From Gemmata obscuriglobus (GTDB taxonomy: Bacteria > Planctomycetota > Planctomycetia > Gemmatales > Gemmataceae): DNA of 32,000 nucleotides. The position numbers and the translations under genes are program-made. Below the pieces are notes generated by a model. The model saw nothing but the letters and a program-made list of their open reading frames with translations. It made no database searches and was not told the origin of the DNA. Position 1 is the stretch's first letter. Each line of letters opens with the position of its first letter. Shown here piece after piece: positions 5,226 to 25,893 of this stretch. The DNA is taken from positions 6,300,001 to 6,332,000 of the forward strand of contig NZ_CP042911.1 in the NCBI RefSeq assembly GCF_008065095.1, written 5' to 3'.

Positions 5226-5323
5226 TATAGTCATCGCCCCGTTGCGGCCCCGTTCCCAGGATTTTGGACCCAACCGCTGACAGTGCTCCTCGGACGGAGA
5301 GGAACGCACATTCGGAACGAAGT

Positions 5324-6844
5324 ATGAACAATCAAGACGATTCCCTCCCTCTCGTTTCGACCGGCGTTCCTGGGCTCGATGACGTTCTCTGCGGAGGGCT
5401 ACCCAAGGGGCACCTTTACCTCGTCGAGGGCGACGCCGGTGCGGGCAAGACGACGCTCGGCCTCCAGTTCCTGCTCGAGGGCAAACGACGCGGTGAAAAA
5501 ACGCTTTGGATCAGCTTGTCTGAAACCGAGTCCCAGCTTCGCGCCACGGCAGCATCGCACCGCTGGGACCTGTCGGGTGTCGAGATTCGAAATCTCACCC
5601 AAACGGGAAGTGGCGCTCCCGACGAACAGTACTCCTTCTTCTCGCCCGCCGACATCGAGCTGAACGAGATTACCAAGGCCGTCAAGAGGGTGGTCGACGC
5701 GGTCGCACCGGACCGCGTGGTGTTCGACCCGTTTTCGGACATCAAGCTGCTGGCCCGCGATCCGCTCCGCTACCGGCGCCAGGTGCTCGAACTTCGGGAG
5801 TACTTCGTGGGGCGGAAATGCACGGTCTTACTCGTTCAAGAGAGAACATCGGATAATTCGTCCCGCGACCCATCTGCCGAAGGCGTAGTTCAGGGCGTTC
5901 TCGCACTCTACCAGGCGTCGCCGGACTTCGGCCGCCAGCGGCGCCGGCTGCGGGTGCATAAGTTGCGCGGGGTGGCGTTCCGGGAAGGGTTCCACGATGT
6001 CAGCATCCTGACCGGCGGCATACACGTTTACCCGCGGCTGGTCGCCGCCGACCACACCGAGGCCCCGCAGGATGAGGAGGTGTCCACGGGCCTGCCGCCG
6101 CTCGACGCCATGCTCGGTGGCGGCGTCGACCGCGGGGCGAGCCTGCTCATCCTGGGACCGGCGGGGGTCGGTAAAAGCACGATTGCGAGCCAGCTCTCGG
6201 TCTCGGCGGTGGCGCGCGGCGAGCCCGTCGCCGTGTTCCTGTTCGACGAAACCGCGCGCGCGTACGTGGCCCGGGGCGAGGGTCTGGGCATGGGTGTCAG
6301 CGAGCTGATCCGGGGCGGGCGCCTGAGGGTTAGGCAGATCGACCCGGCCGAGTTCACGCCCGGCGAGCTGGCCCACACGGTGCGGCGCGACGTCGAGACG
6401 AGTGGCGTTCGCCTCGTGGTGATCGACAGCCTCAACGGGTATCTCAGCGGCATGCCCGACGAGCGGCACCTCTCGATGCACCTCCACGAACTGCTGACCT
6501 ACCTGAGCTACCAGAACGTCGTGACTGTGCTGACGATGAACCAGGACGGCTTTATGGGCGATTCGGTCGCCGCCCCGGTCGACGTGTCCTACCTGACGGA
6601 CGCCGCCCTCATGCTCCGCTACTTCGAATCCGAGGGCGTCGTTCGGCGGGCCGCGTCGGTGATGAAGCGCCGCTGCGGCCCCCACGAGGTCCACATCCGC
6701 GAGATGACTATTACCGACAAGGGCGTGCAGATCGGCCGCGTGCTGACCGAGTTCCGCGGTGTGTTGACGGGACAGGCCCATTTTACCGGGCGCCCTTCGG
6801 GACGCCTGCAGGCTGATGCAGAGAAGGGGCTCGCTAATGGCTGA
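5324..6844 (+). CDS. kaiC: KaiC-family double-domain RecA-like ATPase (circadian clock protein KaiC homolog)
   Basis: Two tandem KaiC/RecA-like domains. Domain 1: GVPGLDDVLCGGLPKGHLYLVEGDAGAGKTTLGLQFL (Walker A) and VVFDPFSD (Walker B). Domain 2: TGLPPLDAMLGGGVDRGASLLILGPAGVGKSTIASQL and LVVIDSLNG. The C-terminal block LRYFESEGVVRRAASVMKRRCGPHEVHIREMTITDKG parallels the cyanobacterial KaiC tail. The ORF track begins at TTG 5264. I prefer the in-frame ATG 5324 (MNNQDDSLPLVSTGVPGLDD). Confidence 0.9.
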   Translation: MNNQDDSLPLVSTGVPGLDDVLCGGLPKGHLYLVEGDAGAGKTTLGLQFLLEGKRRGEKTLWISLSETESQLRATAASHRWDLSGVEIRNLTQTGSGAPDEQYSFFSPADIELNEITKAVKRVVDAVAPDRVVFDPFSDIKLLARDPLRYRRQVLELREYFVGRKCTVLLVQERTSDNSSRDPSAEGVVQGVLALYQASPDFGRQRRRLRVHKLRGVAFREGFHDVSILTGGIHVYPRLVAADHTEAPQDEEVSTGLPPLDAMLGGGVDRGASLLILGPAGVGKSTIASQLSVSAVARGEPVAVFLFDETARAYVARGEGLGMGVSELIRGGRLRVRQIDPAEFTPGELAHTVRRDVETSGVRLVVIDSLNGYLSGMPDERHLSMHLHELLTYLSYQNVVTVLTMNQDGFMGDSVAAPVDVSYLTDAALMLRYFESEGVVRRAASVMKRRCGPHEVHIREMTITDKGVQIGRVLTEFRGVLTGQAHFTGRPSGRLQADAEKGLANG

Positions 6845-8375
6845 GCCCGTCGATGAGCGTGTGCTTGTTCTCGCGCCCGGGCGAGACGGAGCTCTGACTT
6901 GCCGCATCCTTGGAGAGGCCGGGATCGGGTGCCGAGCCGTCGCATCGGTGCCGGCGTTCAACGAAGAGTTCGCCCGCGGTGCCGGAGCTGCCATCATCGC
7001 CGAGGAGGCCCTCGATCAGGAGTCCGCGCCGCAGATCGCCGCCCTGCTCAAGGAGCAACCGGCGTGGTCGGACTTCCCCATCATCCTTGTGGTACGCGAG
7101 AGCGGTGCCGGAACGCGCCTTCAAGAGTTCTCTCCCCTTGGAAACGTTTCGCTATTCACCCGACCGATGAACCTGGGGGCGCTAACGACCGCGATCGGGA
7201 CGGCACTTCGCGCCCGCCGGCGGCAGTACGAGGTGCGAAACTTGCTGGCAGAGCGCGATTCGGCGGCGCGGCGAAAAGACGAGTTCCTGGCGATGCTCGC
7301 TCACGAGTTGCGAAACCCGCTCGCCCCGGTTCGAACCACGCTCCACGTGCTCAAGCTGCGGCACCCCGGGGATCGCGACACGCAGACCGCCGTCGGGGTC
7401 GCCGAGCGGTCCGTCAAGCACCTCGCCCGCCTCATTGACGACCTGCTGGACGTGTCACGAGTGACGCTCGGCAAAGTCGGGCTGCGGTGCGAGCACATGG
7501 ACGCGGCGGACGTGGTGCGACTCGCGACCGAGGCGATGGGAGCGCGGTTCGCAGAGAAGCACGTGGCCCTCGACATCGAGGTGCAAAGCGCGCGGCTACC
7601 CGTCTCCGGCGACGCCGTTCGCCTGGAACAGGCGATCGCGAACGTGCTCGATAACGCACTCAAGTTCACGCCGCCAGGGGGCAAGGTTCGCGTTCGGGCC
7701 GAAGCGGATCGGGGCGAAGCAAAGGTGACGGTTTCCGACACCGGTGCGGGGATCGCGCCCGAAGACCTGCCGCACGTCTTCGATCTGTTCGTTCAGGCGG
7801 ACCGGTCACTCGACAGAACCGTGGGCGGCCTGGGCGTCGGGCTCACAATCGTAAAGGGGCTGGTCGAACTGCACGGCGGACGGATTGCGGTGACTAGTGA
7901 CGGACTCGGCGCCGGCACCACGGCCGTGTTGCACCTCCCGTTGGCCGAGCCGCCGCCGTCCCAAATCGAGACGGACAACGAGGTCGAAGCGGGCGGGCGC
8001 CTGCGGGTCCTCGTTGTGGATGACAACCACGACGGGGCCGACTCGCTGGCGGACTTTCTTTCACTGACCGGGTGCGAGACCAAAACCGCCTACGACGGCG
8101 TTGAGGCTCTTGAGGTGTTCAGCGGGTTTCGGCCAGAGGCCGTGCTCCTCGACATCGGTCTGCCCAAGCTCAACGGCTTCGAGGTGGCCGAGAAGATCCG
8201 CACGTCGCCCGGCGGTGAGGGCGTTACGATCATCGCGGTCACCGGGTACGGGCGGGATGAGGACCGGGTCCGGGGCCGCTCGGTGGGGTTCGATCACCAC
8301 CTGGTCAAGCCGATCGACCTGACCGCCATCGGGCGGTTGATCACCTCGGCGGTCCGCTCGCCCCGGACGGAATGA
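6837..8375 (+). CDS. Hybrid sensor histidine kinase: N-terminal pseudo-receiver, HisKA, HATPase_c, C-terminal receiver
   Basis: H-box EFLAMLAHELRNPLAP. N/G boxes NVLDNALKFTP, VSDTGAGIAPEDLPHVFDLF, GGLGVGLTIVKGLVELHGG. The C-terminal REC is RVLVVDDNHDGAD...VLLDIGLPKLNG...HLVKP. The N-terminal REC-like fold (VLVLAPGRDG...AIIAEEAL...PIILVV) lacks the acidic pocket. ATG 6837 overlaps the kaiC stop (TGA 6842-6844) and follows GAGAAGGGG. The track start, ATG 6816, has no SD. Confidence 0.9.
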   Translation: MAEPVDERVLVLAPGRDGALTCRILGEAGIGCRAVASVPAFNEEFARGAGAAIIAEEALDQESAPQIAALLKEQPAWSDFPIILVVRESGAGTRLQEFSPLGNVSLFTRPMNLGALTTAIGTALRARRRQYEVRNLLAERDSAARRKDEFLAMLAHELRNPLAPVRTTLHVLKLRHPGDRDTQTAVGVAERSVKHLARLIDDLLDVSRVTLGKVGLRCEHMDAADVVRLATEAMGARFAEKHVALDIEVQSARLPVSGDAVRLEQAIANVLDNALKFTPPGGKVRVRAEADRGEAKVTVSDTGAGIAPEDLPHVFDLFVQADRSLDRTVGGLGVGLTIVKGLVELHGGRIAVTSDGLGAGTTAVLHLPLAEPPPSQIETDNEVEAGGRLRVLVVDDNHDGADSLADFLSLTGCETKTAYDGVEALEVFSGFRPEAVLLDIGLPKLNGFEVAEKIRTSPGGEGVTIIAVTGYGRDEDRVRGRSVGFDHHLVKPIDLTAIGRLITSAVRSPRTE

Positions 8376-10968: not shown

Positions 10969-13900
10969 TCACTCCGCGTAGAGGAACTCGTTCAGGCAGA
11001 ACAACACCTGGCACAGGTCGGCGAGTTTCGCTTCGCGGTCGGCGCCGGTCGCGCCCTTCAAGAACGCGATACCGTCCGTCAGTTCGTCTTTGGTGGGGGC
11101 GCGGCACAGCGCGATCTGATAGGCATTGGCGATGCTATCCGGGTCACTTGCCTTGCCGCCGTTGGAGGCACGCGCCGCGAGCCCGTAGGCCGCGGCGCGG
11201 ACGTGCGGGTTGTTCATCAGGTGGAGCGACTGCGGCGCGACGGTCGTGTTCGGGCGGTCGCCGACGCCGACGGTGCCGTCCGGGGCGTCGAACACCACCA
11301 ACGCCGGGATCAGCTTGCTCCGCTTCATCGTGAAGTAAACGCTGCGCCGAGTGCTCTCCTCGCTCAGTGTGCCCGGGCCGTACATGGTGGTGTTGAGCCG
11401 CCCGCCCGCCGCCAGAATGCTGTCGCGGATCACCTCCGCCTGGAGCCGCCGCACCGGCTGCCGCCACACCAGCTTGTTCTCGGGGTCGAGCTTCACCTTC
11501 GCCTCATCGCGAACCGAACTCTGCTGGTACGCGGCGCTGGTCACGATGAGCTTGTGAATCGGCTTCAACTTCCAACCGCCGCGGACCAACTCGGCTGCCA
11601 AGTAATCGAGCAGTTCGGGATGAGAAGGGGCGTCCCCGCGCACCCCGAAGTCGCTCACCGTTGCCACCAGCCCGCGCCCGAAGTGCTGCGCCCACAGCCG
11701 ATTCACGACGACCCGCGCGACCAGGTTCCCGGCGCCGCTCTCGGTATCGGTGAGCCAGTTGGCGAACGCCGTCCGCCGGTAGCTGAGGCGTGCTCCCGCC
11801 GGTGCCGGCTTCACCCACTTGGTTTGCGCTTCGGCGTCGGGCATCAAGGTTTGCAGGAAAGACACCTGCGCAACGCCGTTTTTCTGAGCCGGGTCGCCGC
11901 GGCGGAGGAAGTGCGTTTCGTTCAGAAACTCGGCTTCGGCTTGCGTGTGCAGCTTGACCGCCGGTAGCCCCTCGCTCGCAACCAGCGCCTTCACCTTGTT
12001 CGGCTTCGGAGCGGTCGCAAGGTGATCCCGCTCGGCCTTCTGAAGCTTTCGGTACTCGGCATCTTGTGGGGCGTACCACTTCAAGAGCGCGGCCGTTTGC
12101 TCCGGGGTGCGCCCGCCCGCGGGGCGAGCCAAAGCGGTTTGAACGAGTTCGCTTGTTGCGGGGGCGGTCAGGTCCGGTTTCTCACTCGCACTCACCGCAA
12201 ACCGCGGCCGACCGATCCCGTGCCCGGTATTGTTGTTGAACGACAGCGTCACGGTAAGCCTGGTGCCGCCCGTGAAGCCCACCGGCTTCTCGAACGTGAA
12301 GGCCGCCGCGTGGTCCTTCCCGAATTGCGGGTCCACAGCCCACGCGCTGGTTGCGTTGTCGTCAACCGCGGCGGCCACCGGGAGCCCCTTTTGCTCGAAC
12401 GTGGCCCGCGGGTCGATCAGCTTCACCCGAACCGGCGGTTGCGCCTCTTTTTGCGCAATGGGTTCCGCAAACACCCGCAGGTCGGACAGCGCAAAGTTGC
12501 CGTTGGCGGCCCGGCCCGGTCCGCTCTTCACCAATCCGGCGTGCGTCAGCGCCTCTAATCGCAAGGCTTTGATGCCTTTCAGGTCGGTGAAAAGCTCGAA
12601 GGTGAGCGTTTCGGTGGTCGGGTTCTTCCCCGACAGCAGCACGCTCCCGTCGGGCTGAGCGGTGACAGTGGCACCACCCGCCGACTTACTGGCCCCGATG
12701 CGTGGCAGCAGCCAGTTCGCCCCGGAAAGCGCCTTCCCGCTCTGCTCTTTTTCCCACGTCGCGAAGCGGGTCGGCAGTTGTTCCCGTTCGAACTGCTCCA
12801 GAGCGTCCGTGAACCGCTTGTGTGCGGCGTCGAACGCCTTCTTCTGGCTCGCGTACTTCTCGGGCTCGAGGTCCAGTTCTACCTCGGTTCGGACGACGGT
12901 GGTGAACGCGGACAGCATCCGGTAGTAGTCGCGCGCCGGGATCGCATCGTACTTGTGGTCGTGGCACCGCGCGCACCCGGTGGTGAGCCCCAGGAACGTC
13001 GTCCCGATGTTGCCGAGGATGTCGTCGAGTTCGTCGTACCGGTGCTTCTCGGCCTCGTTCTTGGTGATCTGCGTGCTGTGGACGCCCGCAGCGAGGTAGC
13101 CCGTGGCCATCAGCGCGAGTGGATCGTTCGGCGCGAACTCGTCGCCCGCGAGCTGCCACTTCGTAAAGGTGTCGAACGGGAGGTCGGAGTTGAGCGCCTT
13201 GATGACGAAGTCGCGGTAGTGGTAGGCGGTGGGGCGGTCGTAATCGTGCTCGAACCCGTGGCTCTCGGCGAACCGCACGAGGTCCAGCCAGTGTCGCGCC
13301 TGCTTCTCGCCGAAGTGCGGGGACGCGAGCAGCGAGTCGACAACCTTCTCGTAAGTCTGTGGCGAAGTGTCTTTCAGGAAGGCATCGACCTGTTCGGGCG
13401 TAGGCGGTAGCCCGATGAGCCCCAAGTACGCGCGGCGGATCAGGGTGCGCCGGTCCGCGGCGGGGTTGGGCTTCAACCCGGCTTTCTCCAGTTTGTCGAG
13501 CAGAAACCCGTCAATTGGGTTTTGGGTCTCCGGCTTCGGATTGCGGACGTCCCGTGCGAGTGGCTGATACGCCCAATGCTTCTTGTCCGTGGCCGCGACG
13601 GTTTTCCTCGTCCACGCAGTCTCGTCCACCGCGACGAACGGCTTGTCGTATGGCGCGCCGAGGTCGATCCACTCGGCAATCTTTTGGAGATCGGCGTCCG
13701 GGAGCTTGCGCCCGTTCTCCGGCATGTGTGGCTCTTTGAGGTGAGCCGAGAGTTGGTAAAGCAGGCTCTTCTTGTGATCACCGCTGACGATCCCTGGGCC
13801 GCGTGCTCCCCCTTTTAGGAGGGACTCGCGGGTGTTGATATCGAGTTCACCCTCGACTCGCTCGCCGCTGTGGCACTTCACACATTTGGCCTGGAGCACA

Positions 13901-14043
13901 TTGCGAACGCTCGCCTTGAACAGTTCGGTGCCCTTCACCATTTTCGCGGCGTGATCAGAATCGACCGCCTCTTTCTGCGACTGTCCAAACGCGGGGGCGT
14001 GTGTCGCGACGAGCAGAACGGGCGCGAGGTAGGAGAAGCGCAT
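10969..14043 (-). CDS. PSCyt1/DUF1549/DUF1553 (planctomycete cytochrome-c domain) giant exported protein
   Basis: 1024 aa. Signal peptide MRFSYLAPVLLVATHAPAFG. Heme-binding-like CVKCHSGE (PSCyt1). DUF1549 blocks NPIDGFLLDKLEKAGLKP...RRAYLGLIGLPPTPEQVDAF and CARCHDHKYDAIPARDYYR. DUF1553 blocks FLRRGDPAQK, ARVVVNRLWAQHFGRGLV.TVSDFGVRGD.PSHPELLDYLA and PIHKLIVTSAAYQQSS. Confidence 0.95.
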   Translation of the reverse strand: MRFSYLAPVLLVATHAPAFGQSQKEAVDSDHAAKMVKGTELFKASVRNVLQAKCVKCHSGERVEGELDINTRESLLKGGARGPGIVSGDHKKSLLYQLSAHLKEPHMPENGRKLPDADLQKIAEWIDLGAPYDKPFVAVDETAWTRKTVAATDKKHWAYQPLARDVRNPKPETQNPIDGFLLDKLEKAGLKPNPAADRRTLIRRAYLGLIGLPPTPEQVDAFLKDTSPQTYEKVVDSLLASPHFGEKQARHWLDLVRFAESHGFEHDYDRPTAYHYRDFVIKALNSDLPFDTFTKWQLAGDEFAPNDPLALMATGYLAAGVHSTQITKNEAEKHRYDELDDILGNIGTTFLGLTTGCARCHDHKYDAIPARDYYRMLSAFTTVVRTEVELDLEPEKYASQKKAFDAAHKRFTDALEQFEREQLPTRFATWEKEQSGKALSGANWLLPRIGASKSAGGATVTAQPDGSVLLSGKNPTTETLTFELFTDLKGIKALRLEALTHAGLVKSGPGRAANGNFALSDLRVFAEPIAQKEAQPPVRVKLIDPRATFEQKGLPVAAAVDDNATSAWAVDPQFGKDHAAAFTFEKPVGFTGGTRLTVTLSFNNNTGHGIGRPRFAVSASEKPDLTAPATSELVQTALARPAGGRTPEQTAALLKWYAPQDAEYRKLQKAERDHLATAPKPNKVKALVASEGLPAVKLHTQAEAEFLNETHFLRRGDPAQKNGVAQVSFLQTLMPDAEAQTKWVKPAPAGARLSYRRTAFANWLTDTESGAGNLVARVVVNRLWAQHFGRGLVATVSDFGVRGDAPSHPELLDYLAAELVRGGWKLKPIHKLIVTSAAYQQSSVRDEAKVKLDPENKLVWRQPVRRLQAEVIRDSILAAGGRLNTTMYGPGTLSEESTRRSVYFTMKRSKLIPALVVFDAPDGTVGVGDRPNTTVAPQSLHLMNNPHVRAAAYGLAARASNGGKASDPDSIANAYQIALCRAPTKDELTDGIAFLKGATGADREAKLADLCQVLFCLNEFLYAE

Positions 14044-14224
14044 AACAAGAACCTCGTCAGGCGGGTACGAACGAGGTTACCAGTTCGCGCCCGGCGATGG
14101 AAGCCACAACCAAGCTCCCGACCGGACAGTTCAGGGGGCCACGCGGAAAAAACTTGTCCGCCCGGTACGGCGGCCGGACATTACATCTCACCAGAGACCA
14201 CCACCCACCGATGAAGGGGCACGG

Positions 14225-15988
14225 ATGGCCACACTCCTCACACTCCTCCGCCGCTCGGGCGCACCCGTCACCGACGCCGAACTACTCGACCGCTTCGGTC
14301 GAACGCGCGACGAAGCGGCGTTCGCCGAACTGGTCCGGCGGCACGGCCCTGTGGTGTACCGGATCTGCCGGCGGCTGGTCGGACCGGCCGACGCGGACGA
14401 CGCGTTCCAGTCCACCTTCTTGGTGCTCGCGACTCGTCTACGAGCGGCCCGGGCGTCCGGCGCGCTGGGCGGGTGGCTGGCCGGCGTTGCCGGGCGGGTC
14501 GCGCGACAGATGCGGCGCATGGCCGCGCGCCGGTTGCGGCACGAACAAGCATCCGGAGAGGAACGGCCCGTCGCGTGGGAGGACCGAGCGGCCGACCTGG
14601 AAGATCAGATCCGGGCGCTCGACGAGGAGCTGACGCGCCTGCCGGAAGAGTTGCGCGGACCGGTGGTGTTGTGCCTGCTTCAGGGGTACACGCAGGAGCA
14701 GGCCGCGGCCGAGTTGGGGCGCGACCCGCGCACCCTGCGCCGGCGCCTGGACCGGGCCAAGGGGGTGCTGCGGGCGCGGCTGGAACGTCGGGGCGTGGTG
14801 CCCGCGGTGGCAGCGGCGCTGGTGTCCGGTGGTGGCGGGGCGGTCACGGCAGTGCCTCCGGATCTGAACACCCGAGCGGTCTGTCTGGTGTGCGATTTCT
14901 TGGCCGGTGGCGTGTCGCCCTCGTCGCCCCCGGTCACGCTCGCGAAAGGAGTTGCGACGGCCATGCACGCGCGGAAACTGGTGTGGACGATGGCGGTGGT
15001 GGCGCTCGGGGCAATGGGGCTGGGTGTGGTGACAGCGAACAACGGCCCGCCGGGGGCGGCGCTCACGCCTCCGGCGGCGCCGATCAAAGAGTTGGCGAAG
15101 GAGCCGGTGGACAAGCCGACGGCCAACGCGGACGAGGTGACCGGGCTCGATTGGGCGAAGGATGAAGAGCTGGCCAAGCGCGCGGTCGAGGCGCTGAAGC
15201 GTGACCCGAAGGCGGTGCCGTCGGTGGTGATCCAGTCCGTGTGCGTCCATGTGCCCGACGGGTTCTGCAAACGCGCCGGGCTGACCGAAAACTCACTGGT
15301 GGGTCCTGGAGGCGATTGCTGGCAGTTAAACCAGCGTGAAGCGCGAATGCTCAAGAGCCTGCTCGCCACGGAACGGAACAGTTCCGTCGTTCACCGCCAC
15401 CAGCTCGTCGTGGCAGACGGTAAGATGGCTTCCGCGGAATCTCTCCGGAAGTTGGACGTGGTCACCAGCGTGCAAACGACGACCGAAGGTGGGGCCAAGG
15501 TTTACACCACCAAGACACGGCCTGTAGAGGTGGGGCTCAAGCTCCGGTTCGCTCCGAAGTTTTTACCCAACGGCTCCGCATCTCTGGATGTCAAGTTAAC
15601 CAATACTGTGGTTGTCGGACCAGGGGTGGAACATTTCCAAGGCTATCTTGAGATTTTGTCAGATCCTGCTAATTTCCACGACACCTCATGGATGCGGAGG
15701 AGTTTGCACGGGAGAAACCTCCTGGTGGAGATGATTGACGGGGGAGCGGTTGTTGTGAGGACTCGCCACAAAGGTAGCCTTTCACAGACCACTGTCAACA
15801 TCGGCGGCATCCCATTGACCGAATTGCCAGAGCATAACGGCTCGGCATATGAAGTGTTACTGCTGCTGACGGCCGATGTAGTTGGACCGCAAGACAAAAT
15901 CACGCGACCTCATCCGAATGCCCTGCCCGCTTCACCGCCGAAAATGCCATCCGACCCAGCGGGGCTCGGGCCGTCCACGAACCCGTAA
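14225..15988 (+). CDS. ECF (sigma-70 family) sigma factor fused to a TM helix and a ~320-aa extracytoplasmic secretin-like domain
   Basis: 587 aa. Region 2: FAELVRRHGPVVYRICRRLVG..DADDAFQSTFLVLA. Region 4: LPEELRGPVVLCLLQGYTQEQAAAELGRDPRTLRRRLDRAKGVLRARL. One TM helix KLVWTMAVVALGAMGLGVVT (aa 251-270, nt 14975-15034). The C-terminal part shows secretin-like blocks (see findings). There is no stop between the modules. Confidence 0.85.
   Translation: MATLLTLLRRSGAPVTDAELLDRFGRTRDEAAFAELVRRHGPVVYRICRRLVGPADADDAFQSTFLVLATRLRAARASGALGGWLAGVAGRVARQMRRMAARRLRHEQASGEERPVAWEDRAADLEDQIRALDEELTRLPEELRGPVVLCLLQGYTQEQAAAELGRDPRTLRRRLDRAKGVLRARLERRGVVPAVAAALVSGGGGAVTAVPPDLNTRAVCLVCDFLAGGVSPSSPPVTLAKGVATAMHARKLVWTMAVVALGAMGLGVVTANNGPPGAALTPPAAPIKELAKEPVDKPTANADEVTGLDWAKDEELAKRAVEALKRDPKAVPSVVIQSVCVHVPDGFCKRAGLTENSLVGPGGDCWQLNQREARMLKSLLATERNSSVVHRHQLVVADGKMASAESLRKLDVVTSVQTTTEGGAKVYTTKTRPVEVGLKLRFAPKFLPNGSASLDVKLTNTVVVGPGVEHFQGYLEILSDPANFHDTSWMRRSLHGRNLLVEMIDGGAVVVRTRHKGSLSQTTVNIGGIPLTELPEHNGSAYEVLLLLTADVVGPQDKITRPHPNALPASPPKMPSDPAGLGPSTNP
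15084..15280 (+). repeat. Copy A of a 197-bp near-identical direct repeat inside the paralogous genes
   Basis: 15084-15280 aligns to 16323-16519 (offset 1239). I saw only 2 mismatches (ccggtGgac/ccggtAgac; acgCgcc/acgGgcc). Flanking homology (14939-15083 vs 16184-16322) is clearly more diverged and has a 6-nt indel. Confidence 0.9.
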
Positions 15989-16144
15989 CGTTTGGCGACG
16001 GTGACCTTGTGCGGTTGATCGGCACCGCTGTGTCCGTGCTGTAGTTCATCGTGGAGAGGCGTTCGGAAGTCGCGCACCTTTGCCGCAATCGGTGGCTCAC
16101 AAGATCGTCTGGCAACGGCACTGACCTTCGGCGCTTCGGGTGTT

Positions 16145-17104
16145 GTGTTCGATTTCGTGACCGGCGGTTCTTTGCCGGTCGTCCTCGCGAAGGGAGTTGC
16201 GACGACCATGCACGCACGGAAGTTGACGTGGACGTCAATGGCACTGGTAGCAGTGGGTTTGGGGGCGGTGGCGGCGAATAACGGCCCGCCGGTGGCGGCG
16301 CCCACGCCCCCGGTGGCGCCGGTCAAAGAGTTGGCGAAGGAGCCGGTAGACAAGCCGACGGCCAACGCGGACGAGGTGACCGGGCTCGATTGGGCGAAGG
16401 ATGAAGAGCTGGCCAAGCGCGCGGTCGAGGCGCTGAAGCGTGACCCGAAGGCGGTGCCGTCGGTGGTGATCCAGTCCGTGTGCGTCCATGTGCCCGACGG
16501 GTTCTGCAAACGGGCCGGGATGACACCCACCACGCCGCCCGTGGCGGGAGCAATTATCGATCAGTGGCAACTGAGTCAGCGGGAAACGCGAATGCTCAAA
16601 GGACTTTTGGGTGCGGAGCAAAGCCGCTCCATTGTTCACCGGCGCCAGCTCGTCGTAACTGATAGGGCGATAGGCGCTGCAGAGACGCTTCAAAATCTGA
16701 ACGTGGTAACCGATGTCGAATCAACGACTGAGGAAGGCGCCCAGATCTACACAGCAAGAACCGTATCCGCAAACGTGGGACTCAAGTTCAAGTTCGCTCC
16801 CCAAATCATGTTCACGGGCGACGTGCATCTCGACATCAAATTGACCTGCTACTCTATAGACATACCGACCGTTGTTGGCGGAAAGCGTGTGGCAGTATTC
16901 AACGAAGCAGGGCTCAATGTCACGTCGCCTATTCCAGACGGCGGCACACTCGTCGTAAAAGCCGTTCACCGAGGGATACCTTGGCAGTCTCCCATTTCGA
17001 TCGGCGGAGCTTCTCTAACAGAGGTGCGTTCCGACAATACCCCTTATGAAATGTTGCAGTTCTTTACCGTTTACGCAACCGCCCCGTCGAAGAAACTGCC
17101 CTGA
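16145..17104 (+). CDS. Bitopic membrane protein with a secretin-like domain; sigma-less paralog of the C-terminal half of the preceding gene
   Basis: 319 aa with a GTG start. The first ~125 aa (LAKGVATTMHARKLTWTSMALVAVGLGAV...KELAKEPVDKPTANADEVTGLDWAKDEELAKRAVEALKRDPKAVPSVVIQSVCVHVPDGFCKRAG) are nearly identical to aa 239-352 of ORF 14225..15988. The rest is a diverged homolog (WQLSQRETRMLKGLL, RRQLVVTD, VGLKFKFAP, IPDGGTLVV, ISIGGASLTEV, YEMLQFFTV). The frame is open back to 16019 but has no ATG/GTG/TTG before 16145. Confidence 0.75.
   Translation: MFDFVTGGSLPVVLAKGVATTMHARKLTWTSMALVAVGLGAVAANNGPPVAAPTPPVAPVKELAKEPVDKPTANADEVTGLDWAKDEELAKRAVEALKRDPKAVPSVVIQSVCVHVPDGFCKRAGMTPTTPPVAGAIIDQWQLSQRETRMLKGLLGAEQSRSIVHRRQLVVTDRAIGAAETLQNLNVVTDVESTTEEGAQIYTARTVSANVGLKFKFAPQIMFTGDVHLDIKLTCYSIDIPTVVGGKRVAVFNEAGLNVTSPIPDGGTLVVKAVHRGIPWQSPISIGGASLTEVRSDNTPYEMLQFFTVYATAPSKKLP
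16323..16519 (+). repeat. Copy B of the 197-bp near-identical direct repeat
   Basis: See copy A. Downstream of 16519 and 15280 the two genes keep protein-level similarity but the nucleotide sequences differ strongly. Confidence 0.9.
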
Positions 17105-17200
17105 CTATGACCGAGCGCAGCCAGAGCTGCACGACACTGCCATTGACTGGCACCATGCGCACAGCACCGGCTCGGTCGCCAGTTCATACCGGCGGTTCGC

Positions 17201-17722
17201 TCACGCCCGCGTGCGGAACGTGTGCATCCGTTCGTACCCGGCGCGGGCCGAGCCGCTCACGTCGTCCCAGTCGGGGCCGTCCGCGCCGTACCGGTCGTGC
17301 CACTTGGTCCGCAGCGCGGGCTCGACTTCGTCAAAGGTCCGGTTCGGGTGCTCGAACTCGGACTGCAGCCCGAAGCGGTACGCCAGCGCGGCGTGCTCGT
17401 CGCTCGCCTGCTTCTCGTACTCGCGCCGGTCCAGCCACTCGCGGATCCAGTTGTCCTGGGTGGTCGGGTCGATCAACTCGCCGACGCCCTTGCCGGCCAG
17501 CCCGCCGGCGACCGCCCCCACGACGGCACCCGCGATCACCCCGGGGGGACCGAGCACCATCCCGACCGCCGCGCCGCTGGCGGCCCCGCCGAGCGCGGCG
17601 CCGACCCCGGCCTCGATCGGGTGCGACCCGGGCTGATCGGTCAGCGGGTCCGGGTTCCGCGCGCCGTACGGCGGTAGGTCGAGTGACTTCTCCGGGTCCT
17701 TGCCGTCGGATTTCTTGCTCAT
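17201..17722 (-). CDS. Glycine-zipper membrane protein with a C-terminal soluble domain (hypothetical)
   Basis: The ORF track gives 17201..17920, but that extension overlaps the upstream gene. The internal ATG 17722 has a strong SD, AAGGAG (17734-17729), at 6-nt spacing. The product is 173 aa: MSKKSDGKDPEKS..., then a Gly/Ala zipper GVGAALGGAASGAAVGMVLGPPGVIAGAVVGAVAGGLAGKGVG, then a W/D/E/R-rich tail. Confidence 0.7.
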   Translation of the reverse strand: MSKKSDGKDPEKSLDLPPYGARNPDPLTDQPGSHPIEAGVGAALGGAASGAAVGMVLGPPGVIAGAVVGAVAGGLAGKGVGELIDPTTQDNWIREWLDRREYEKQASDEHAALAYRFGLQSEFEHPNRTFDEVEPALRTKWHDRYGADGPDWDDVSGSARAGYERMHTFRTRA

Positions 17723-17775
17723 CTCGTGCTCCTTGTTGAGGGTCCAAATCCCGGCCCGCTTCCGCACGGCCGGGG

Positions 17776-19293
17776 CTATTTCTTCTCGATCACCTTCAGC
17801 CCTTCGACCGCCGGCCCGTGCTGCACCTCGCCGGTGCAGGTGAACCGCGACCCGTGGCACGGGCAGTCCCACGTCTTCTCGCCCGGGTTCCATTGCACGA
17901 CGCCGCCGAGGTGCGGGCACACCGCCGACAGTTCATGCACCTGTCCCTTCTCGTCCTTGTAGACCGCGTGCTTGCTCAGCCCCTTCCGCACGACGGCGCC
18001 GTGCCCGGGCGGAACGCTTGCGACCGACGCGACCTCGCCCCCGGTGAGCCAGTCCGCGTACTGGGCCGCGAGGTTCACGTTCTCTTCGAGCAGCGTCTTC
18101 AGCGCCGCGGGCATCCACCGCGACGGCGAGTACAGGCTGGCGAACTCGTTCGTTCGCCCCAGGATGAGGTCGGCGACCAGCCGCGCGCCCAACGTGCCGT
18201 GCGTCATCCCCATTCCCGAATCGCCGGTGATGACGTAAAGGTTGTCCCGGAGCCCCGGGGCGCGGCCGATCAGCCCCAACCCGTCGGGCGTTTCGAACAC
18301 CTGTCCGGACCAATGGTGCTTCACCGCGCCGGCCTGCGGGAACCGCGCGCGGGTCCAGGCTTCGAGCCGCTCCCACCGCTGCTGCTGGTCTTGGGCCTGC
18401 CCGGTCTTGTGATCCTCACCGCCCACGATCAGGAGGTCGGTTCCGTCAGCGCCCCGCGCCCCGCGGACGTAGTGGTACGGGTCTTCCGTGTCCCAAAAGA
18501 GGGCCGCGGGGACGGTCCCGGCGGGGGCCTCCAGAGCGACCGCGTATGTGGTGTAAGCCGCAAGTTTGAAGTGCAGCGACAGGCCCGAATCGAACGGCGT
18601 GTTCGTCGCCACCACAATCGCGTCGGCCGCCACCTGCTGCCCGCCCCTCATATGGGCCACACAGGTCTTGCCGCTTTCAACCTTAACCACCGAGGCGTCG
18701 GTATGAATCGTACCGCCGTGGCGTCGGATCGCGCGGGCCAGGCCGCTCAGGTACTTCAACGGGTGAAACTGACCGTTATCGGGACACCGAAGCCCCGGCC
18801 CGGTGTCGTGGGCGGGGAGCGGCACGCGGTCCACCCGCTCGAACGCCAACCCGAGCCGGGTCAGCGTGAGCATCTCCTCGCGCACTTTTTGAGGGCCGTC
18901 GGCTCCGGGGAACAAGTACCCGTCGAGTCGCTGAAAATCGCACGCAATGTTCTCGCGCTGGGCGATCTGCTCGATCAGGGTAATCGCGCCCTGATGGCTC
19001 TTCGCTGCGAGTTGTGCGGCGGCGTCCCCGCGGACCGACGCGAGCCGGGTGAACCGGTCGTCGATCACCCACGCGAGGTGGGCGGTGGTGAACTCGGTCT
19101 CACCCCCAGCGACAACAGGTTTGCTCTCAAGAACGGCTACTGACTTGCCTGCCGACGCGAGCAAGTAGGCGGTTGTGAGGCCGGCAATCCCGCCCCCAAT
19201 GACGCACACATCGTAGCGGGGGCTCCCGCCCGGCGGTGCGGCCGAGCGGGCGGGGTCATCAAGGGACCAAACGGAGCTGGTAGCGTTCGTCAT
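17776..19293 (-). CDS. FAD-dependent oxidoreductase (DAO-like) fused to a C-terminal Rieske [2Fe-2S] domain
   Basis: Dinucleotide fold YDVCVIGGGIAGLTTAYLLASAGKSVAVLE. The DAO-like body includes LYVITGDSGMGMTHG. Rieske motifs CPHLGG (C-x-H) and CPCHGSRF (C-x-x-H) lie in the last ~100 aa. I prefer ATG 19293 (MTNATSSVW...). GTG 19356 (the track start) is an alternative and adds 21 aa. Confidence 0.9.
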   Translation of the reverse strand: MTNATSSVWSLDDPARSAAPPGGSPRYDVCVIGGGIAGLTTAYLLASAGKSVAVLESKPVVAGGETEFTTAHLAWVIDDRFTRLASVRGDAAAQLAAKSHQGAITLIEQIAQRENIACDFQRLDGYLFPGADGPQKVREEMLTLTRLGLAFERVDRVPLPAHDTGPGLRCPDNGQFHPLKYLSGLARAIRRHGGTIHTDASVVKVESGKTCVAHMRGGQQVAADAIVVATNTPFDSGLSLHFKLAAYTTYAVALEAPAGTVPAALFWDTEDPYHYVRGARGADGTDLLIVGGEDHKTGQAQDQQQRWERLEAWTRARFPQAGAVKHHWSGQVFETPDGLGLIGRAPGLRDNLYVITGDSGMGMTHGTLGARLVADLILGRTNEFASLYSPSRWMPAALKTLLEENVNLAAQYADWLTGGEVASVASVPPGHGAVVRKGLSKHAVYKDEKGQVHELSAVCPHLGGVVQWNPGEKTWDCPCHGSRFTCTGEVQHGPAVEGLKVIEKK

Positions 19294-25194: not shown

Positions 25195-25893
25195 GTGATT
25201 TTGAGCAGCCTCCGCGCCCGCGCCCGCATCCCGGAGCTGATGGACGATCCCGCCATCGACCCCGCCGAACACCGGCACGCGCTGGAGGGGTTGCGCCGGC
25301 TGAACCGGGCCAGCGACAGCGCCGGCGTGCTGTGGCCCGCTATCGCGGAACTGTCCGCCCGGCTCGGGCGACCGGTGAAGGTGCTGGACGTGGCGACCGG
25401 GAGCGGCGACGTGCCCCGCGGGCTGCTCCGGCGTGCGGAGCGAGCGGGCGTGGGGCTCGAAATGGCCGGGTGCGACATCAGCCCCACGGCACTCGACGAA
25501 GCCGCCCGACAGGCACCCGGCGTCCGGTTCTTCCAGCACGATGCGTTACACGCCCGGCTGCCGACGGGCTTCGACGTGGTGACGTGCTCGCTGTTCCTCC
25601 ACCACCTGAGCGGGGACGAGGCGATCGCCTTACTGGCGAACATGGAAAACGCCGCCGAACACCTGGTGCTGGTGAACGATCTCGCCCGCTCGCGGTTTAA
25701 CTACTGCGGTGTGTGGCTCGCGTGCCACCTGCTGACCCGGTCGCGGGTGGTGCGGTTCGACGGCCCGGCGTCGGTGCGGTCGGCGTTCACGCCCGCCGAG
25801 GCGCTCGCTCTGGCCCGCCGCGCCGGGCTGAGCGGCGCAACCGTGCGGGGCCGGTTCCCCGCCCGGTTCCTTCTGTCATGGAGTCGCCGGTGA
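25195..25893 (+). CDS. Class I SAM-dependent methyltransferase (first gene of the type III PKS cassette)
   Basis: 232 aa. GTG start with GGAG (25185-25188) 6 nt upstream. Motif I VLDVATGSGDV, then GCDISPTAL and FDVVTCSLFLHHL. Its stop TGA 25891-25893 overlaps the next gene's start by 16 nt. Confidence 0.85.
   Translation: MILSSLRARARIPELMDDPAIDPAEHRHALEGLRRLNRASDSAGVLWPAIAELSARLGRPVKVLDVATGSGDVPRGLLRRAERAGVGLEMAGCDISPTALDEAARQAPGVRFFQHDALHARLPTGFDVVTCSLFLHHLSGDEAIALLANMENAAEHLVLVNDLARSRFNYCGVWLACHLLTRSRVVRFDGPASVRSAFTPAEALALARRAGLSGATVRGRFPARFLLSWSRR

What the first reader, a model, noticed from the sequence alone, without database searches (positions are those of the whole stretch)
14225..17104. 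ECF sigma factor covalently fused, through one TM helix, to a secretin-homology domain, with a sigma-less paralog immediately downstream
ORF 14225..15988 begins as an ordinary ECF sigma factor (regions 2 and 4, aa ~20-187). It runs without a stop through a linker and one TM helix (aa 251-270) into a ~320-aa extracytoplasmic part. By eye, aa ~334-553 (nt ~15224-15883) reproduce the order of conserved blocks of the secretin C-domain (Pfam PF00263, T2SS/T3SS/T4P secretins):
- VVIQSVCVHVPDGFCKRAGL (cf. 'v.Iea.ivEv....lG')
- VVHRHQLVVADGKMASAES (cf. 'vls.P.l.tl.nq.A.i')
- VEVGLKLRFAPKFLPNGSASLDVKLTNT (cf. 'd.Gl.L.vtP.i..dg.i.l.v....S')
- LLVEMIDGGAVVV (cf. 'v.v.dGqt.viGG')
- IGGIPLTELP....YEVLLLLTADVV (cf. 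'giP.L..iP.....tELlifitP.iv')
The downstream gene (16145..17104) encodes only a ~25-aa cytoplasmic stub, the TM helix and the same domain (IPDGGTLVVKAV, ISIGGASLTEV, YEMLQFFTVYAT). Secretins are normally outer-membrane channel subunits. A secretin-like module anchored in the inner membrane and joined to a sigma factor would be a single-polypeptide sigma/anti-sigma/sensor design. I am not aware that this has been characterised. Planctomycete ECF sigmas with long C-terminal extensions are known as a class, but not (to my knowledge) with this domain.
Basis: partly seen in the sequence, partly recalled or inferred. Interest (0 to 1): 0.7.

Follow-up and report, generated by a model that had tools for sequence, protein, structure and literature searches.

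The report
Sigma factor fused to secretin core
A Gemmata obscuriglobus gene joins an alternative (ECF) sigma factor, through one membrane-crossing segment, to a cut-down copy of the secretin channel domain; this design recurs in the family Gemmataceae, has not been studied, and probably lets an envelope structure control gene expression.

Summary
ORF 14225..15988 (587 aa) is one uninterrupted gene. The identical protein is called in three G. obscuriglobus assemblies, and 46 of the 120 closest relatives share the architecture. It reads ECF sigma (sigma2 + sigma4), conserved cytoplasmic linker, one hydrophobic anchor (aa 252-271), disordered linker, then a secretin-homologous beta domain (aa 333-556).

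- **Homology.** Pfam PF00263 is only just above threshold for the single proteins. A family profile hits solved GspD, RcpA, PilQ and pIV structures at E = 1e-21 to 1e-11. AlphaFold models of both genes match only sigma factors and secretins.
- **No anti-sigma domain** is detectable.
- **Truncated module.** It lacks the amphipathic helical loop motif (0 of 53 members) and most of the beta-lip, the parts that put secretins into the outer membrane. It is more likely a periplasmic ring or sensor module than an outer-membrane pore.
- **Signal-peptide-like anchor.** It looks like an internal Sec signal peptide with a conserved AXA-type cleavage motif. This suggests sigma release by proteolysis.
- **Sigma-less neighbour (16145..17104).** It is a lineage-specific truncated tandem copy. 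It shares a 164-nt identical tract with gene 1, and its core is hypervariable between near-identical genomes.

The general class (planctomycete ECFs with variable C-terminal extensions) is known. This variant is uncharacterised.

The parts
14147..14186 (+). Conserved upstream element: A-tract followed by TGTCC-N18-GGACATT(AC), an imperfect 28-nt palindrome about 40-70 nt before the ATG. It is a candidate promoter or operator that travels with ECF genes of this clade.
   Evidence: It occurs once in the window and once, at the same position, in each of 11 loci (9 different genes). One of these, L006, is a non-secretin ECF of the clade. It is absent before gene 2. RNA covariation is not supported.
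14225..15988 (+). Gene 1: a 587-aa ECF sigma factor fused to an anchor and a secretin-like domain. This is a single ORF.
   Evidence: The identical protein is called on three assemblies. The JC673 orthologue is also 587 aa.
14330..14530 (+). Sigma-70 region 2 (aa 36-102).
   Evidence: Pfam PF04542 at 34.1 bits. TIGR02937 sigma70-ECF at 67.5 bits over aa 32-186. Model confidence (pLDDT) about 90. Foldseek matches ECF sigma factors.
14612..14761 (+). Sigma-70 region 4 (aa 130-179).
   Evidence: Pfam PF08281 at 33.4 bits.
14780..14977 (+). Cytoplasmic linker (aa 186-251). It holds a weakly hydrophobic Ala/Gly-rich stretch (aa 190-210) and the clade-wide motif (V)FDFLTGG...P..LAKGVA...(R)K.
   Evidence: In the anchor-region alignment of all 120 closest relatives, the A and G of the LAKGVA motif (A240, G242) are invariant and K251 is present in 104. 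L214, R217, V219, V222, L226 and G229 are invariant among 18 fusion proteins. There is no match to any anti-sigma domain.
14978..15037 (+). Single hydrophobic anchor (aa 252-271) with signal-peptide anatomy: n-region R250-K251, h-region about 15 aa, Gly at -5, V/G at -3, Ala at -1.
   Evidence: Kyte-Doolittle maximum 2.0 at aa 252-270. G267 is present in 119/120 and A271 in 116/120, with Ser in the other 4.
15038..15220 (+). Extracytoplasmic linker (aa 272-332): a Pro/Ala-rich disordered stretch followed by one helix (aa 310-326).
   Evidence: pLDDT is below 50 for aa 251-304, and a helix is predicted at aa 310-326. Linker length across the family has a median of 60 aa and ranges from 24 to 104.
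15221..15892 (+). Truncated secretin core (aa 333-556). It comprises a first strand, a C340-x7-C348 loop, a helix with invariant R371-E372, long beta hairpins (the gate/inner-barrel region) and a last strand. It has no amphipathic helical loop (AHL) motif and only a very short lip region.
   Evidence: The region is under weak purifying selection (dN/dS 0.39 against JC673).
15893..15985 (+). Pro-rich C-terminal tail (aa 557-587).
   Evidence: Low confidence in the model. In many relatives the tail ends in P-x-(R/K)-(P/Q).
15084..15273 (+). Gene-conversion tract, copy in gene 1. It has 164 nt identical (15110-15273) to 16349-16512, and 190 nt with one mismatch.
16145..17104 (+). Gene 2: a sigma-less truncated paralogue. 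It is 319 aa from GTG 16145. Alternative starts are ATG 16208 (M22, which gives a textbook signal peptide) and ATG 16238 (M32, as annotated in GobsT_53920).
   Evidence: The model has a core pLDDT above 90 and matches only secretins.
16323..16512 (+). Gene-conversion tract, copy in gene 2.
16500..17200 (+). Hypervariable segment: the secretin core of gene 2 plus its 3' flank. It is 40-70% identical to G. algarum JC673, whereas the surrounding 5.5 kb is 78-100% identical in 100-nt windows, mostly 93-99%.

Best explanation
Gene 1 encodes a membrane-tethered pro-sigma factor of a Gemmataceae-expanded ECF clade.

Shown:
- The cytoplasmic N-terminus is a normal ECF sigma (sigma2 + sigma4).
- A conserved linker and one N-in/C-out hydrophobic anchor follow.
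- The extracytoplasmic part is a disordered Pro/Ala-rich linker plus a truncated secretin core. The core keeps the gate/inner-barrel part of the secretin fold. It has lost the amphipathic helical loop and most of the beta-lip.

Inferred:
- While tethered, the sigma factor cannot engage RNA polymerase productively.
- The secretin-like module sits in the periplasm. It self-assembles into a ring or docks onto another envelope assembly, as secretin cores do, and serves as the input domain.
- The sigma factor is released by proteolysis at the anchor. The anchor carries a clade-wide signal-peptidase-type motif (Gly at -5, V/G at -3, Ala at -1). Cleavage would leave a signal-peptide-like stub, the kind of substrate that site-2 proteases (RseP type) clear.
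- The state of the periplasmic module (folded, oligomerised or docked, versus not) would decide whether that cleavage happens.

Gene 2 is a truncated tandem copy: pre-anchor motif, anchor, linker and core. Read from Met22 it is an ordinary exported protein, so it could co-assemble with the gene 1 module. It is specific to this lineage and is not part of the family's core design.
For: The fusion is real and conserved:
- The identical 587-aa product is called on three assemblies.
- 46 of the 120 nearest relatives carry sigma + anchor + secretin-like domain. They come from Gemmata, Frigoriglobus and Gemmataceae MAGs.
- dN/dS is below 1 in every segment.

Domain identities:
- Pfam and NCBIfam.
- The family profile hits solved secretins at E = 2.4e-21 to 1e-4.
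- AlphaFold gives pLDDT of about 90 in the sigma and beta domains.
- Foldseek hits are only ECF sigmas and secretins.

Topology:
- There is one strong hydrophobic segment, with R/K on its N-side and an acidic or neutral C-side.
- A conserved Cys pair (C340, C348) fits an oxidising compartment.

Truncation:
- Pfam matches stop at model positions 84-128 of 169.
- In the alignment with EPEC GspD (5w68), the kvPllgdiPlignLF stretch falls in an insert state of the family profile.
- The AHL-like motif is present in 0 of 53 family members, against 8-10 of 14 large secretin proteins.
- About 22 profile positions separate the first strand from the PF00263 start, against about 65 residues in GspD and ExeD.

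Anchor as a processing site: G267 in 119/120, A271 in 116/120 (Ser in 4), V/G/A at -3, K251 in 104/120.

The anchor and linker are shared by all 120 clade members, whatever their periplasmic domain. This points to one common release mechanism with exchangeable inputs.

Precedent: the sigma-fused, envelope-spanning Dma3 and the processed Dma1 in Bacteroides (PMC10927553).
Against: - No experiment bears on localisation, processing, oligomerisation or activity.
- No site-1 or site-2 protease gene, and no target gene, is linked to the locus.
- Signal-peptidase cleavage of an internal signal sequence 250 residues from the N-terminus is unusual in bacteria. If it were constitutive, there would be no regulation.
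- I could not run a dedicated signal-peptide or topology predictor, and I could not inspect model coordinates or predict a multimer.
- A second, weakly hydrophobic Ala/Gly-rich stretch (aa 190-210, Kyte-Doolittle 1.63) is not formally excluded as a membrane segment.
- The clade's many unrelated extensions have been explained as accidents of insertion (PMC7671368).
Confidence: 0.5

Rival explanations
1. Dual-membrane-spanning device. [quoted passage not shown] The sigma factor would then report directly on an outer-membrane channel, as in a multimeric version of Bacteroides Dma3.
For: - The homology to pore-forming secretins is true.
- The linker is disordered, with a median length of 60 aa.
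- Dma proteins show that an inner-membrane anchor, a disordered region and an outer-membrane barrel can coexist in one chain (PMC10927553).
- BlaR1-type giants in Planctomycetota end in a full secretin domain with an AHL-like motif.
Against: - The family lacks the AHL motif (0 of 53) and most of the beta-lip. The literature calls these essential for membrane insertion and the membrane-spanning part (PMC8134430, PMC6532946, PMC10653833).
- Some members have linkers of only 24-31 aa.
- There is no pilotin-type S-domain and no neighbouring secretion or pilus genes.
Confidence: 0.12
2. Evolutionary passenger. A duplicated sigma2-sigma4(-anchor) unit landed in front of a secretin-type gene, and the captured domain has no sensory role. 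Regulation, if any, rests on the tether alone.
For: - The mechanism was proposed for exactly this group of planctomycete ECFs (PMC7671368).
- The same sigma-anchor unit carries Secretin_N, POTRA, Poly_export and Peptidase_MA_2 domains in relatives.
- The genomic context is not conserved.
Against: - 46 members in several genera keep family-specific invariant residues in the module (G352, L368, R371, E372, P444, T549 and the Cys pair) despite 25-40% identity.
- dN/dS is 0.39 in the core.
- All variable domains are extracytoplasmic envelope modules. This is what exchangeable sensor domains would look like.
Confidence: 0.2
3. Artefact. A frameshift or mis-assembly joins a sigma gene to a separate membrane-protein gene, or the secretin resemblance is chance.
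For: The Pfam score for the single proteins is only at threshold: 28.8 and 27.5 bits against 27.5.
Against: - Three independent assemblies give the identical product.
- Orthologues and paralogues have the same architecture.
- The family profile reaches E = 2.4e-21 against solved secretins, and fold matches have probability 1.0.
Confidence: 0.01

Closest known systems
Planctomycete ECF sigma factors with long, unrelated C-terminal extensions (Pinto & da Fonseca 2020, PMC7671368; the Gemmata expansion noted by Jogler et al. 2012)
   Same: Same organism group. The sigma2/sigma4 regions are highly conserved while the C-terminal parts are variable. There is no conserved neighbourhood and no separate anti-sigma gene. 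Gene 1 is a member of this phenomenon.
   Different: The text I could read neither names a secretin extension nor mentions the shared anchor and linker (no secretin mention). Here the conserved unit is sigma + linker motif + signal-peptide-like anchor. That unit is present in all 120 relatives, and the variable part is always extracytoplasmic.
[quoted passage not shown] 2024, PMC10927553)
   Same: A cytoplasmic sigma-controlling head, one alpha-helical anchor, a long disordered periplasmic linker and a C-terminal beta-rich domain of an outer-membrane protein type. In Dma3 the sigma factor is fused to the same chain. Dma1 is proteolytically processed.
   Different: Dma proteins carry an anti-sigma domain and a monomeric 8-stranded barrel (OMP_b-brl_2). 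Their authors reported finding them only in Bacteroidota. Here there is no detectable anti-sigma domain, and the C-terminal domain is a truncated secretin core that probably does not enter the outer membrane. The resemblance is functional, not homologous.
Secretins (GspD/PulD, PilQ, RcpA, InvG, pIV; Pfam PF00263)
   Same: Homologous core covering the first strand, the helix, the VG..L.VTP..I..G motif and the gate-forming hairpins, the ..dGgT.vi.. motif and the last strand. The fold matches have probability 1.0.
   Different: - No N-terminal signal peptide.
- No N0-N3 ring domains in gene 1.
- No AHL motif, and the lip region is reduced to a disulfide-type loop.
- No S-domain.
- No linked secretion or pilus genes.
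- It is tethered to the inner membrane and to a sigma factor.
RseA/sigma-E type regulated intramembrane proteolysis, and the post-liberation cleavage of signal peptides by RseP (textbook knowledge, not tested here)
   Same: A sigma factor is held at the inner membrane by a single-pass N-in/C-out segment. Release needs removal of the periplasmic part and then cleavage within the membrane.
   Different: Here the sigma factor is covalently joined to the anchor rather than bound by an anti-sigma domain. The first cut is proposed to be by signal peptidase at an AXA-type site.
BlaR1/MecR1-type Peptidase_M56 sensor-transducers fused to secretin modules in Planctomycetota
   Same: An inner-membrane signalling head joined in one polypeptide to the same subfamily of secretin-like modules.
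   Different: The head is a four-TM zinc protease instead of a sigma factor. These are giant proteins (1766-3205 aa) with 3-4 Secretin-matching stretches. At least two of them (P0176, P0258) end in a full-length secretin domain that has an AHL-like motif.

Membership tests
ECF (group 4) sigma-70 factors | Sigma2 and sigma4 domains are present, and sigma1.1 and sigma3 are absent. | tested here: met
   PF04542 at aa 36-102 and PF08281 at aa 130-179. TIGR02937 scores 67.5 bits (cutoff 42.9) over aa 32-186. No region 3 or region 1 hit appears. Foldseek matches ECF sigma structures.
ECF (group 4) sigma-70 factors | A cognate anti-sigma factor or other regulator is usually encoded next to the gene or fused to it. 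| tested here: not met
   No anti-sigma gene lies beside any of six loci. No anti-sigma domain is found in aa 186-275 by profile search against PDB or Pfam. A fused extension is the candidate regulator.
Secretin (PF00263) | Significant sequence match to the secretin domain. | tested here: met
   Single proteins score 28.8 and 27.5 bits against a gathering score of 27.5. The family profile against PDB gives GspD 2.4e-21, RcpA 5e-15, PilQ 1e-13, pIV 1e-11 and InvG 1e-4.
Secretin (PF00263) | Secretin fold: inner- and outer-barrel beta sheets with gate hairpins. | tested here: met
   AlphaFold pLDDT is about 90 in the beta domain of both proteins. For gene 2 the best 35 Foldseek hits are all secretins. 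For gene 1 all listed hits are secretins or ECF sigma factors. Probability is 0.9-1.0 over 250-320 columns. TM-scores are low (0.15-0.3), as expected when an isolated protomer is compared with an assembled one.
Secretin (PF00263) | Amphipathic helical loop (VPxLGDIPxLGxLF-type motif), described as a signature of the family and essential for membrane insertion (PMC8134430, PMC6532946). | tested here: not met
   The motif falls in an insert state of the family profile in the alignment with EPEC GspD (5w68). A regex finds it in 0 of 53 family members and in 8-10 of 14 other large secretins. Pfam matches end at model positions 84-128 of 169. No helix is predicted there.
Secretin (PF00263) | Beta-lip region between N3 and PF00263, which forms the membrane-spanning strands (PMC10653833, PMC6532946). 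| tested here: not met
   About 35 residues (aa 345-379, containing the C340-x7-C348 loop and one short strand) replace about 65 residues in E. coli GspD and A. hydrophila ExeD. This was judged from alignment spacing and secondary structure only; coordinates were not inspected.
Secretin (PF00263) | N-terminal Sec signal peptide and periplasmic N0-N3 ring domains. | tested here: not met
   Gene 1 starts with the sigma factor, and its only hydrophobic segment is internal. No Secretin_N hit appears in gene 1 or gene 2. A few relatives keep Secretin_N (P0042, P0063). Gene 2 read from Met22 has a signal-peptide-like N-terminus.
Secretin (PF00263) | Encoded with a type II or III secretion, type IV or Tad pilus, or filamentous-phage system. 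| tested here: not met
   No such genes occur in the 32-kb window or beside five other fusion genes.
Secretin (PF00263) | Forms 12-15-mer rings located in the outer membrane. | not testable with these tools
   Only monomer prediction was available, and there are no experimental data.
[quoted passage not shown] | N-terminal anti-sigma domain, TM helix, disordered linker and C-terminal 8-stranded OMP_b-brl_2 barrel; Bacteroidota (PMC10927553). | tested here: not met
   The TM helix and disordered linker are present. There is no anti-sigma domain. The C-terminal domain is secretin-like rather than an 8-stranded barrel. The organism is a planctomycete. It is an analogue, not a member.

The most novel reading that the evidence does not exclude
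In Planctomycetota, secretin-derived modules have been recruited as the extracytoplasmic part of envelope signalling proteins with at least two different inner-membrane heads: ECF sigma factors and BlaR1-type M56 proteases. In the sigma fusion the truncated secretin core would form, or join, a multimeric periplasmic ring. The assembly state of that ring would gate proteolytic release of up to a dozen tethered sigma factors at once. This would be a self-contained, oligomerisation-switched pro-sigma with no anti-sigma factor. The sigma-less neighbour, with its homogenised 5' tract and hypervariable core, would be an exchangeable or co-assembling subunit.
Probability: 0.25. Interest if true: 0.8.

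Novelty: new variant of a known kind. Interest (0 to 1): 0.6.

Why it matters
- **For sigma-factor biology.** This would be a clean example of an ECF sigma with no anti-sigma factor, controlled through a covalently attached envelope module. The whole clade (sigma + linker motif + signal-peptide-like anchor + exchangeable periplasmic domain) would then be a modular one-component trans-membrane signalling system. That would help explain how Gemmata came to have so many ECFs.
- **For secretin biology.** It shows a secretin core stripped of its membrane-insertion elements and reused outside any secretion machine. The BlaR1-secretin giants suggest an unrecognised signalling role for secretin modules.
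- **Beyond Bacteroidota.** It extends the idea behind the Bacteroides Dma proteins to another phylum with a non-homologous solution.
- **Testability.** G. obscuriglobus is cultivable, so the predictions (processing at Ala271, dependence on a site-2 protease, ring formation) can be tested directly.

Tried and rejected
- **Frameshift or mis-assembly.** Rejected. The identical protein is called on three assemblies and the architecture is conserved.
- **Chance resemblance to secretin.** Rejected.
- **Gene 2 as the ancestral stand-alone gene into which a sigma unit was inserted.** Rejected. Gene 2 keeps the clade-specific cytoplasmic pre-anchor motif (FDFVTGG..LAKGVA), and DNA homology to gene 1 starts exactly at its first possible start codon. 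Nearly all other 'sigma-less' database entries are 5'-truncated fragments on contigs of about 1-5 kb (P0123 and the short entries), or calls from an internal Met.
- **Hidden anti-sigma domain in aa 186-275.** Nothing found.
- **RNA hairpin in the conserved upstream element.** The outer arms are invariant and the inner pairs are poorly compensated. The covariation term is unfavourable, so I treat it as a DNA element.
- **Searches that yielded nothing useful.** The word-indexed protein search with the domain profile returned only 5 hits. The scan with A4 returned 18 loci.
- **Papers not available.** Supplements of the two ECF classification papers, and the papers of Jogler 2012 and Wiegand 2020, are not held. 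I could not check whether a Secretin column appears in their Pfam heat maps or tables.
- **Second TM at aa 190-210.** Considered unlikely. It is borderline in hydrophobicity, would violate the positive-inside rule for the main anchor, and would place a Cys-paired secretin fold in the cytoplasm.

Full report
**1. What is in the sequence.**
The window is from Gemmata obscuriglobus. The exact 587-aa product of ORF 14225..15988 is called on GCA_000171775.1 (contig ABGO01000053.1) and on two contigs longer than 1 Mb. The downstream ORF matches GobsT_53920 at 100%.

Pfam finds three domains in protein 1 (p1):
- Sigma70_r2, aa 36-102.
- Sigma70_r4_2, aa 130-179.
- PF00263 Secretin, aa 380-463, 28.8 bits against a gathering score of 27.5.

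Protein 2 (p2) scores exactly at threshold for Secretin, at aa 156-271. NCBIfam places the N-terminus in the ECF superfamily (TIGR02937, 67.5 bits) and in no named equivalog. p1 aa 224-559 and p2 aa 3-318 are 56% identical.

**2. It is not an artefact.**
Three assemblies give the identical protein. The G. algarum JC673 orthologue is also 587 aa and collinear. All 120 of the closest database relatives carry the sigma part and the linker-plus-anchor part, and 46 of them also carry the secretin-like domain. These 46 come from Gemmata spp. (JC673, JC717, SH-PL17, G18, IIL30), a second G. obscuriglobus paralogue (P0016), Frigoriglobus tundricola and Gemmataceae MAGs. Between G. obscuriglobus and JC673, dN/dS is 0.10 in the sigma part and 0.39 in the secretin-like part.

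**3. The C-terminal domain is a true secretin homologue.**
- A profile of 33 C-terminal domains (alignment A3) hits solved secretins and nothing else of note: GspD/ExeD 6i1x at 2.4e-21, E. coli GspD 5wq7 at 3e-20, RcpA 8odn at 5e-15, PilQ at about 1e-13, phage pIV at 1e-11, then BfpB, MxiD and InvG.
- The AlphaFold model of p1, built on 46 sequences, has pLDDT of about 90 in the sigma domains and in the beta domain (aa 333-553). It predicts a helix at aa 235-263 that covers the anchor, a disordered stretch at aa 264-304 and a helix at aa 310-326.
- Foldseek against the PDB returns only ECF sigma factors and secretins.
- The p2 model has a core pLDDT above 90, and its best 35 Foldseek hits are all secretins.

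**4. It is a truncated secretin core.**
- Pfam matches in this family stop at model positions 84-128 of 169.
- In the alignment with EPEC GspD (5w68), the stretch kvPllgdiPlignLF has no counterpart in the family profile and falls in an insert state.
- A regular expression for that motif finds it in 0 of 53 family members. It finds it in 8-10 of 14 other large planctomycetal secretin proteins.
- The literature identifies this motif region as the amphipathic helical loop (AHL). [quoted passage not shown]
- The beta-lip is the main membrane-spanning part and lies between N3 and PF00263 (PMC10653833, PMC6532946).
- Here, the segment between the first strand (aa 333-344) and the PF00263 start (aa 380) is about 35 residues. 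In GspD and ExeD it is about 65. It contains a family-specific, nearly invariant Cys pair, C340-x7-C348.

The module therefore keeps the gate/inner-barrel/vestibule part and has lost the two elements that put secretins into the outer membrane. Most members lack it, and the model there has low confidence.

**5. The anchor.**
There is one strongly hydrophobic segment, aa 252-270, with HARK before it and a neutral to acidic Pro/Ala-rich segment after it. This indicates an N-in/C-out orientation.

Across all 120 clade members the segment has the anatomy of a cleavable Sec signal peptide:
- Lys at 251 in 104 of 120.
- An h-region of about 15 residues.
- Gly at -5 in 119 of 120.
- Gly, Val or Ala at -3.
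- Ala at -1 (A271) in 116 of 120, and Ser in the other four.

Upstream lies an invariant cytoplasmic motif, (V)FDFLTGG ... P..LAKGVA. A profile of aa 186-275 matches no anti-sigma domain in the PDB or Pfam. A weakly hydrophobic Ala/Gly-rich stretch at aa 190-210 is at threshold (Kyte-Doolittle 1.63). I regard it as cytoplasmic.

**6. The wider family.**
The same sigma-linker-anchor unit carries other extracytoplasmic envelope modules in relatives: two Secretin_N domains, Secretin_N plus Secretin, POTRA, Poly_export and Peptidase_MA_2. This fits the published picture of planctomycete ECF duplication with unrelated C-terminal extensions (PMC7671368). It adds that the conserved unit includes the anchor and that the variable part is always outside the cytoplasm.

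An exhaustive profile search with A3 finds 152 cluster representatives at E <= 1e-30. The nearest non-sigma relatives are all planctomycetal:
- Signal-peptide proteins of 580-690 aa. They hold Secretin_N and two tandem copies of the truncated module.
- Giant proteins of 1766-3205 aa. They have an N-terminal BlaR1-type Peptidase_M56 head and 3-4 Secretin-matching stretches. At least two of them (P0176, P0258) end in a full-length secretin domain with an AHL-like motif.

**7. The sigma-less neighbour.**
- DNA homology between the two genes begins at about 16140, right at the first possible start of p2.
- p2 keeps the clade's cytoplasmic pre-anchor motif, so it is a truncated tandem copy of a fusion gene and not the ancestral free gene.
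- A 164-nt stretch is identical between the genes (15110-15273 and 16349-16512), and 190 nt have one mismatch. The flanks are 65-75% identical. This indicates gene conversion.
- Read from Met22 (ATG 16208), p2 has a textbook signal peptide: MHARK-LTWTSMALVAVGLGAV-AA|NNGPP.
- The tandem pair exists in G. obscuriglobus and JC673. The syntenic locus of JC717 holds a single fusion gene whose core has the length of p2. Four other fusion genes have no such neighbour.
- Other 'sigma-less' database entries are 5'-truncated fragments or calls from an internal Met.
- G. obscuriglobus and JC673 are mostly 93-99% identical over 13000-18500, but only 40-70% identical over 16500-17200. The p2 cores are 43% identical in protein, whereas the p1 cores are 94.6% identical. 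This must be allele replacement. Its cause is unexplained.

**8. Context and cis element.**
No secretion or pilus genes lie in the window or beside the other fusion genes. The neighbours are PSCyt/PSD1, DUF1501, a porin, a KaiC-like ATPase, a hybrid histidine kinase, an oxidoreductase and glycogen/trehalose enzymes.

About 40-70 nt upstream of every fusion gene examined lies a conserved element: an A-tract plus TGTCC-N18-GGACATT(AC) (window 14147-14186). It is also upstream of one non-secretin ECF of the clade. It occurs once per locus and is absent before p2. RNA covariation does not support a hairpin. It is a candidate promoter or operator that moves with the gene.

**9. How it most likely works.**
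Shown: the domain order, the homologies, the truncation, the conservation of the anchor motif and the lack of an anti-sigma domain.

Inferred:
- The sigma factor is inactive while tethered.
- The periplasmic secretin-like module oligomerises, or docks onto another envelope assembly, and acts as the input.
- Release needs a cut at the AXA-type site by signal peptidase or another site-1 activity. A site-2 protease then clears the signal-peptide-like stub, as RseP does for RseA and for free signal peptides (established knowledge, not tested here).

I put 0.5 on this general scheme. The main alternatives are:
- A true outer-membrane pore tethered across the periplasm (0.12). The missing AHL and lip, and linkers as short as 24 aa, weaken it.
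- A functionally idle captured domain (0.2). Family-specific conservation weakens it.

**10. Comparison and novelty.**
- It is a member of the ECF family, and of the known phenomenon of planctomycete ECFs with C-terminal extensions.
- It is a homologue of the secretin family but not a full member, because two defining features were tested and not met.
- It resembles the Bacteroides Dma proteins, especially sigma-fused Dma3, but is not related to them. Their authors found none outside Bacteroidota (PMC10927553).
- No searchable paper combines Gemmata, secretin and sigma factor, or BlaR1, secretin and Planctomycetes.
- The architecture is visible in public domain annotations but is uncharacterised.

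I rate it a new variant of a known kind, with interest 0.6.

**11. Limits.**
I had no access to model coordinates, multimer prediction or dedicated topology and signal-peptide predictors. I had no whole-genome motif scan and no expression data. The supplements of the ECF classification papers, where a secretin extension might be listed, were not available.

Noticed in passing
window 16500-17200 (compare L003 about 6290-7000): The secretin core of the sigma-less gene and its 3' flank are only 40-70% identical between G. obscuriglobus and G. algarum JC673. The surrounding 5.5 kb is mostly 93-99% identical. The cores are 43% identical in protein, against 94.6% for gene 1. JC717 has a single fusion gene at the same locus with yet another core of p2 length. 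This looks like allele or cassette replacement through the homogenised 5' tract.
   Followed up: partly
window 14147-14186; the same place in L003-L007 and L021-L024: A conserved A-tract plus TGTCC-N18-GGACATT(AC) imperfect palindrome lies 40-70 nt upstream of every sigma-secretin gene examined and of one non-secretin ECF of the clade. It occurs once per locus. It is a candidate autoregulated promoter or operator. RNA-hairpin covariation is not supported.
   Followed up: partly
proteins P0176, P0214, P0252, P0258 (Planctomycetota MAGs; e.g. MCP4611928.1): These giant proteins (1766-3205 aa) have an N-terminal BlaR1-type Peptidase_M56 membrane head followed by 3-4 Secretin-matching stretches. 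P0176 and P0258 also carry Secretin_N repeats and end in a full secretin domain with an AHL-like motif. They are a second kind of inner-membrane signalling head fused to secretins, and I found no description in the searchable literature.
   Followed up: partly
proteins P0128, P0129/P0269, P0134 (Isosphaera and Gemmata): These signal-peptide proteins of 580-650 aa carry two tandem copies of the truncated secretin-like module in one chain. The first copy holds the VPAGFCER Cys motif. Canonical secretins have one secretin domain per subunit.
   Followed up: no
proteins P0042, P0053, P0057, P0061, P0063, P0101, P0049, P0054, P0081: The same sigma-linker-anchor unit is fused in relatives to Secretin_N, POTRA, Poly_export or Peptidase_MA_2 domains. 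All of these are extracytoplasmic envelope modules.
   Followed up: partly
C-termini of P0003-P0037 (compare window 15893-15985): Many family members end in a Pro-rich tail that closes with P-x-(R/K)-(P/Q), for example PVRP, PARP, PPRQ and PVKP. This is a possible C-terminal recognition motif, by analogy with the RcpA C-terminus that binds its pilotin. Gene 1 ends in STNP and gene 2 in KKLP.
   Followed up: no
window 15242-15268 (p1 C340 to C348) and the same residues in p2: A nearly invariant Cys-x7-Cys pair (CV.VP.GFC) follows the first strand of the module. It is absent from canonical secretins and is likely a periplasmic disulfide.
   Followed up: no
window 14792-14854 (p1 aa 190-210): An Ala/Gly-rich, weakly hydrophobic stretch (GVVPAVAAALVSGGGGAVTAV, Kyte-Doolittle 1.63) directly follows sigma4 and is conserved in the clade. 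It may associate with the membrane or be a second regulatory element.
   Followed up: no
window 16129-16145: A weak terminator-like hairpin followed by a T-rich run lies immediately before, and overlaps, the first possible start codon of gene 2. No promoter-like site or clade element lies upstream of gene 2, so its expression is uncertain.
   Followed up: no
window 5264-8375: A KaiC-like double ATPase gene (5264..6844) overlaps by its end a hybrid histidine kinase / response-regulator gene (6816..8375). This is a possible KaiC-output pair and is unrelated to the finding.
   Followed up: no
window 25713-28081: An FAD-dependent oxidoreductase/cyclase-like gene overlaps a type III polyketide synthase (chalcone/stilbene synthase-like) gene. 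This is a small candidate secondary-metabolite pair.
   Followed up: no
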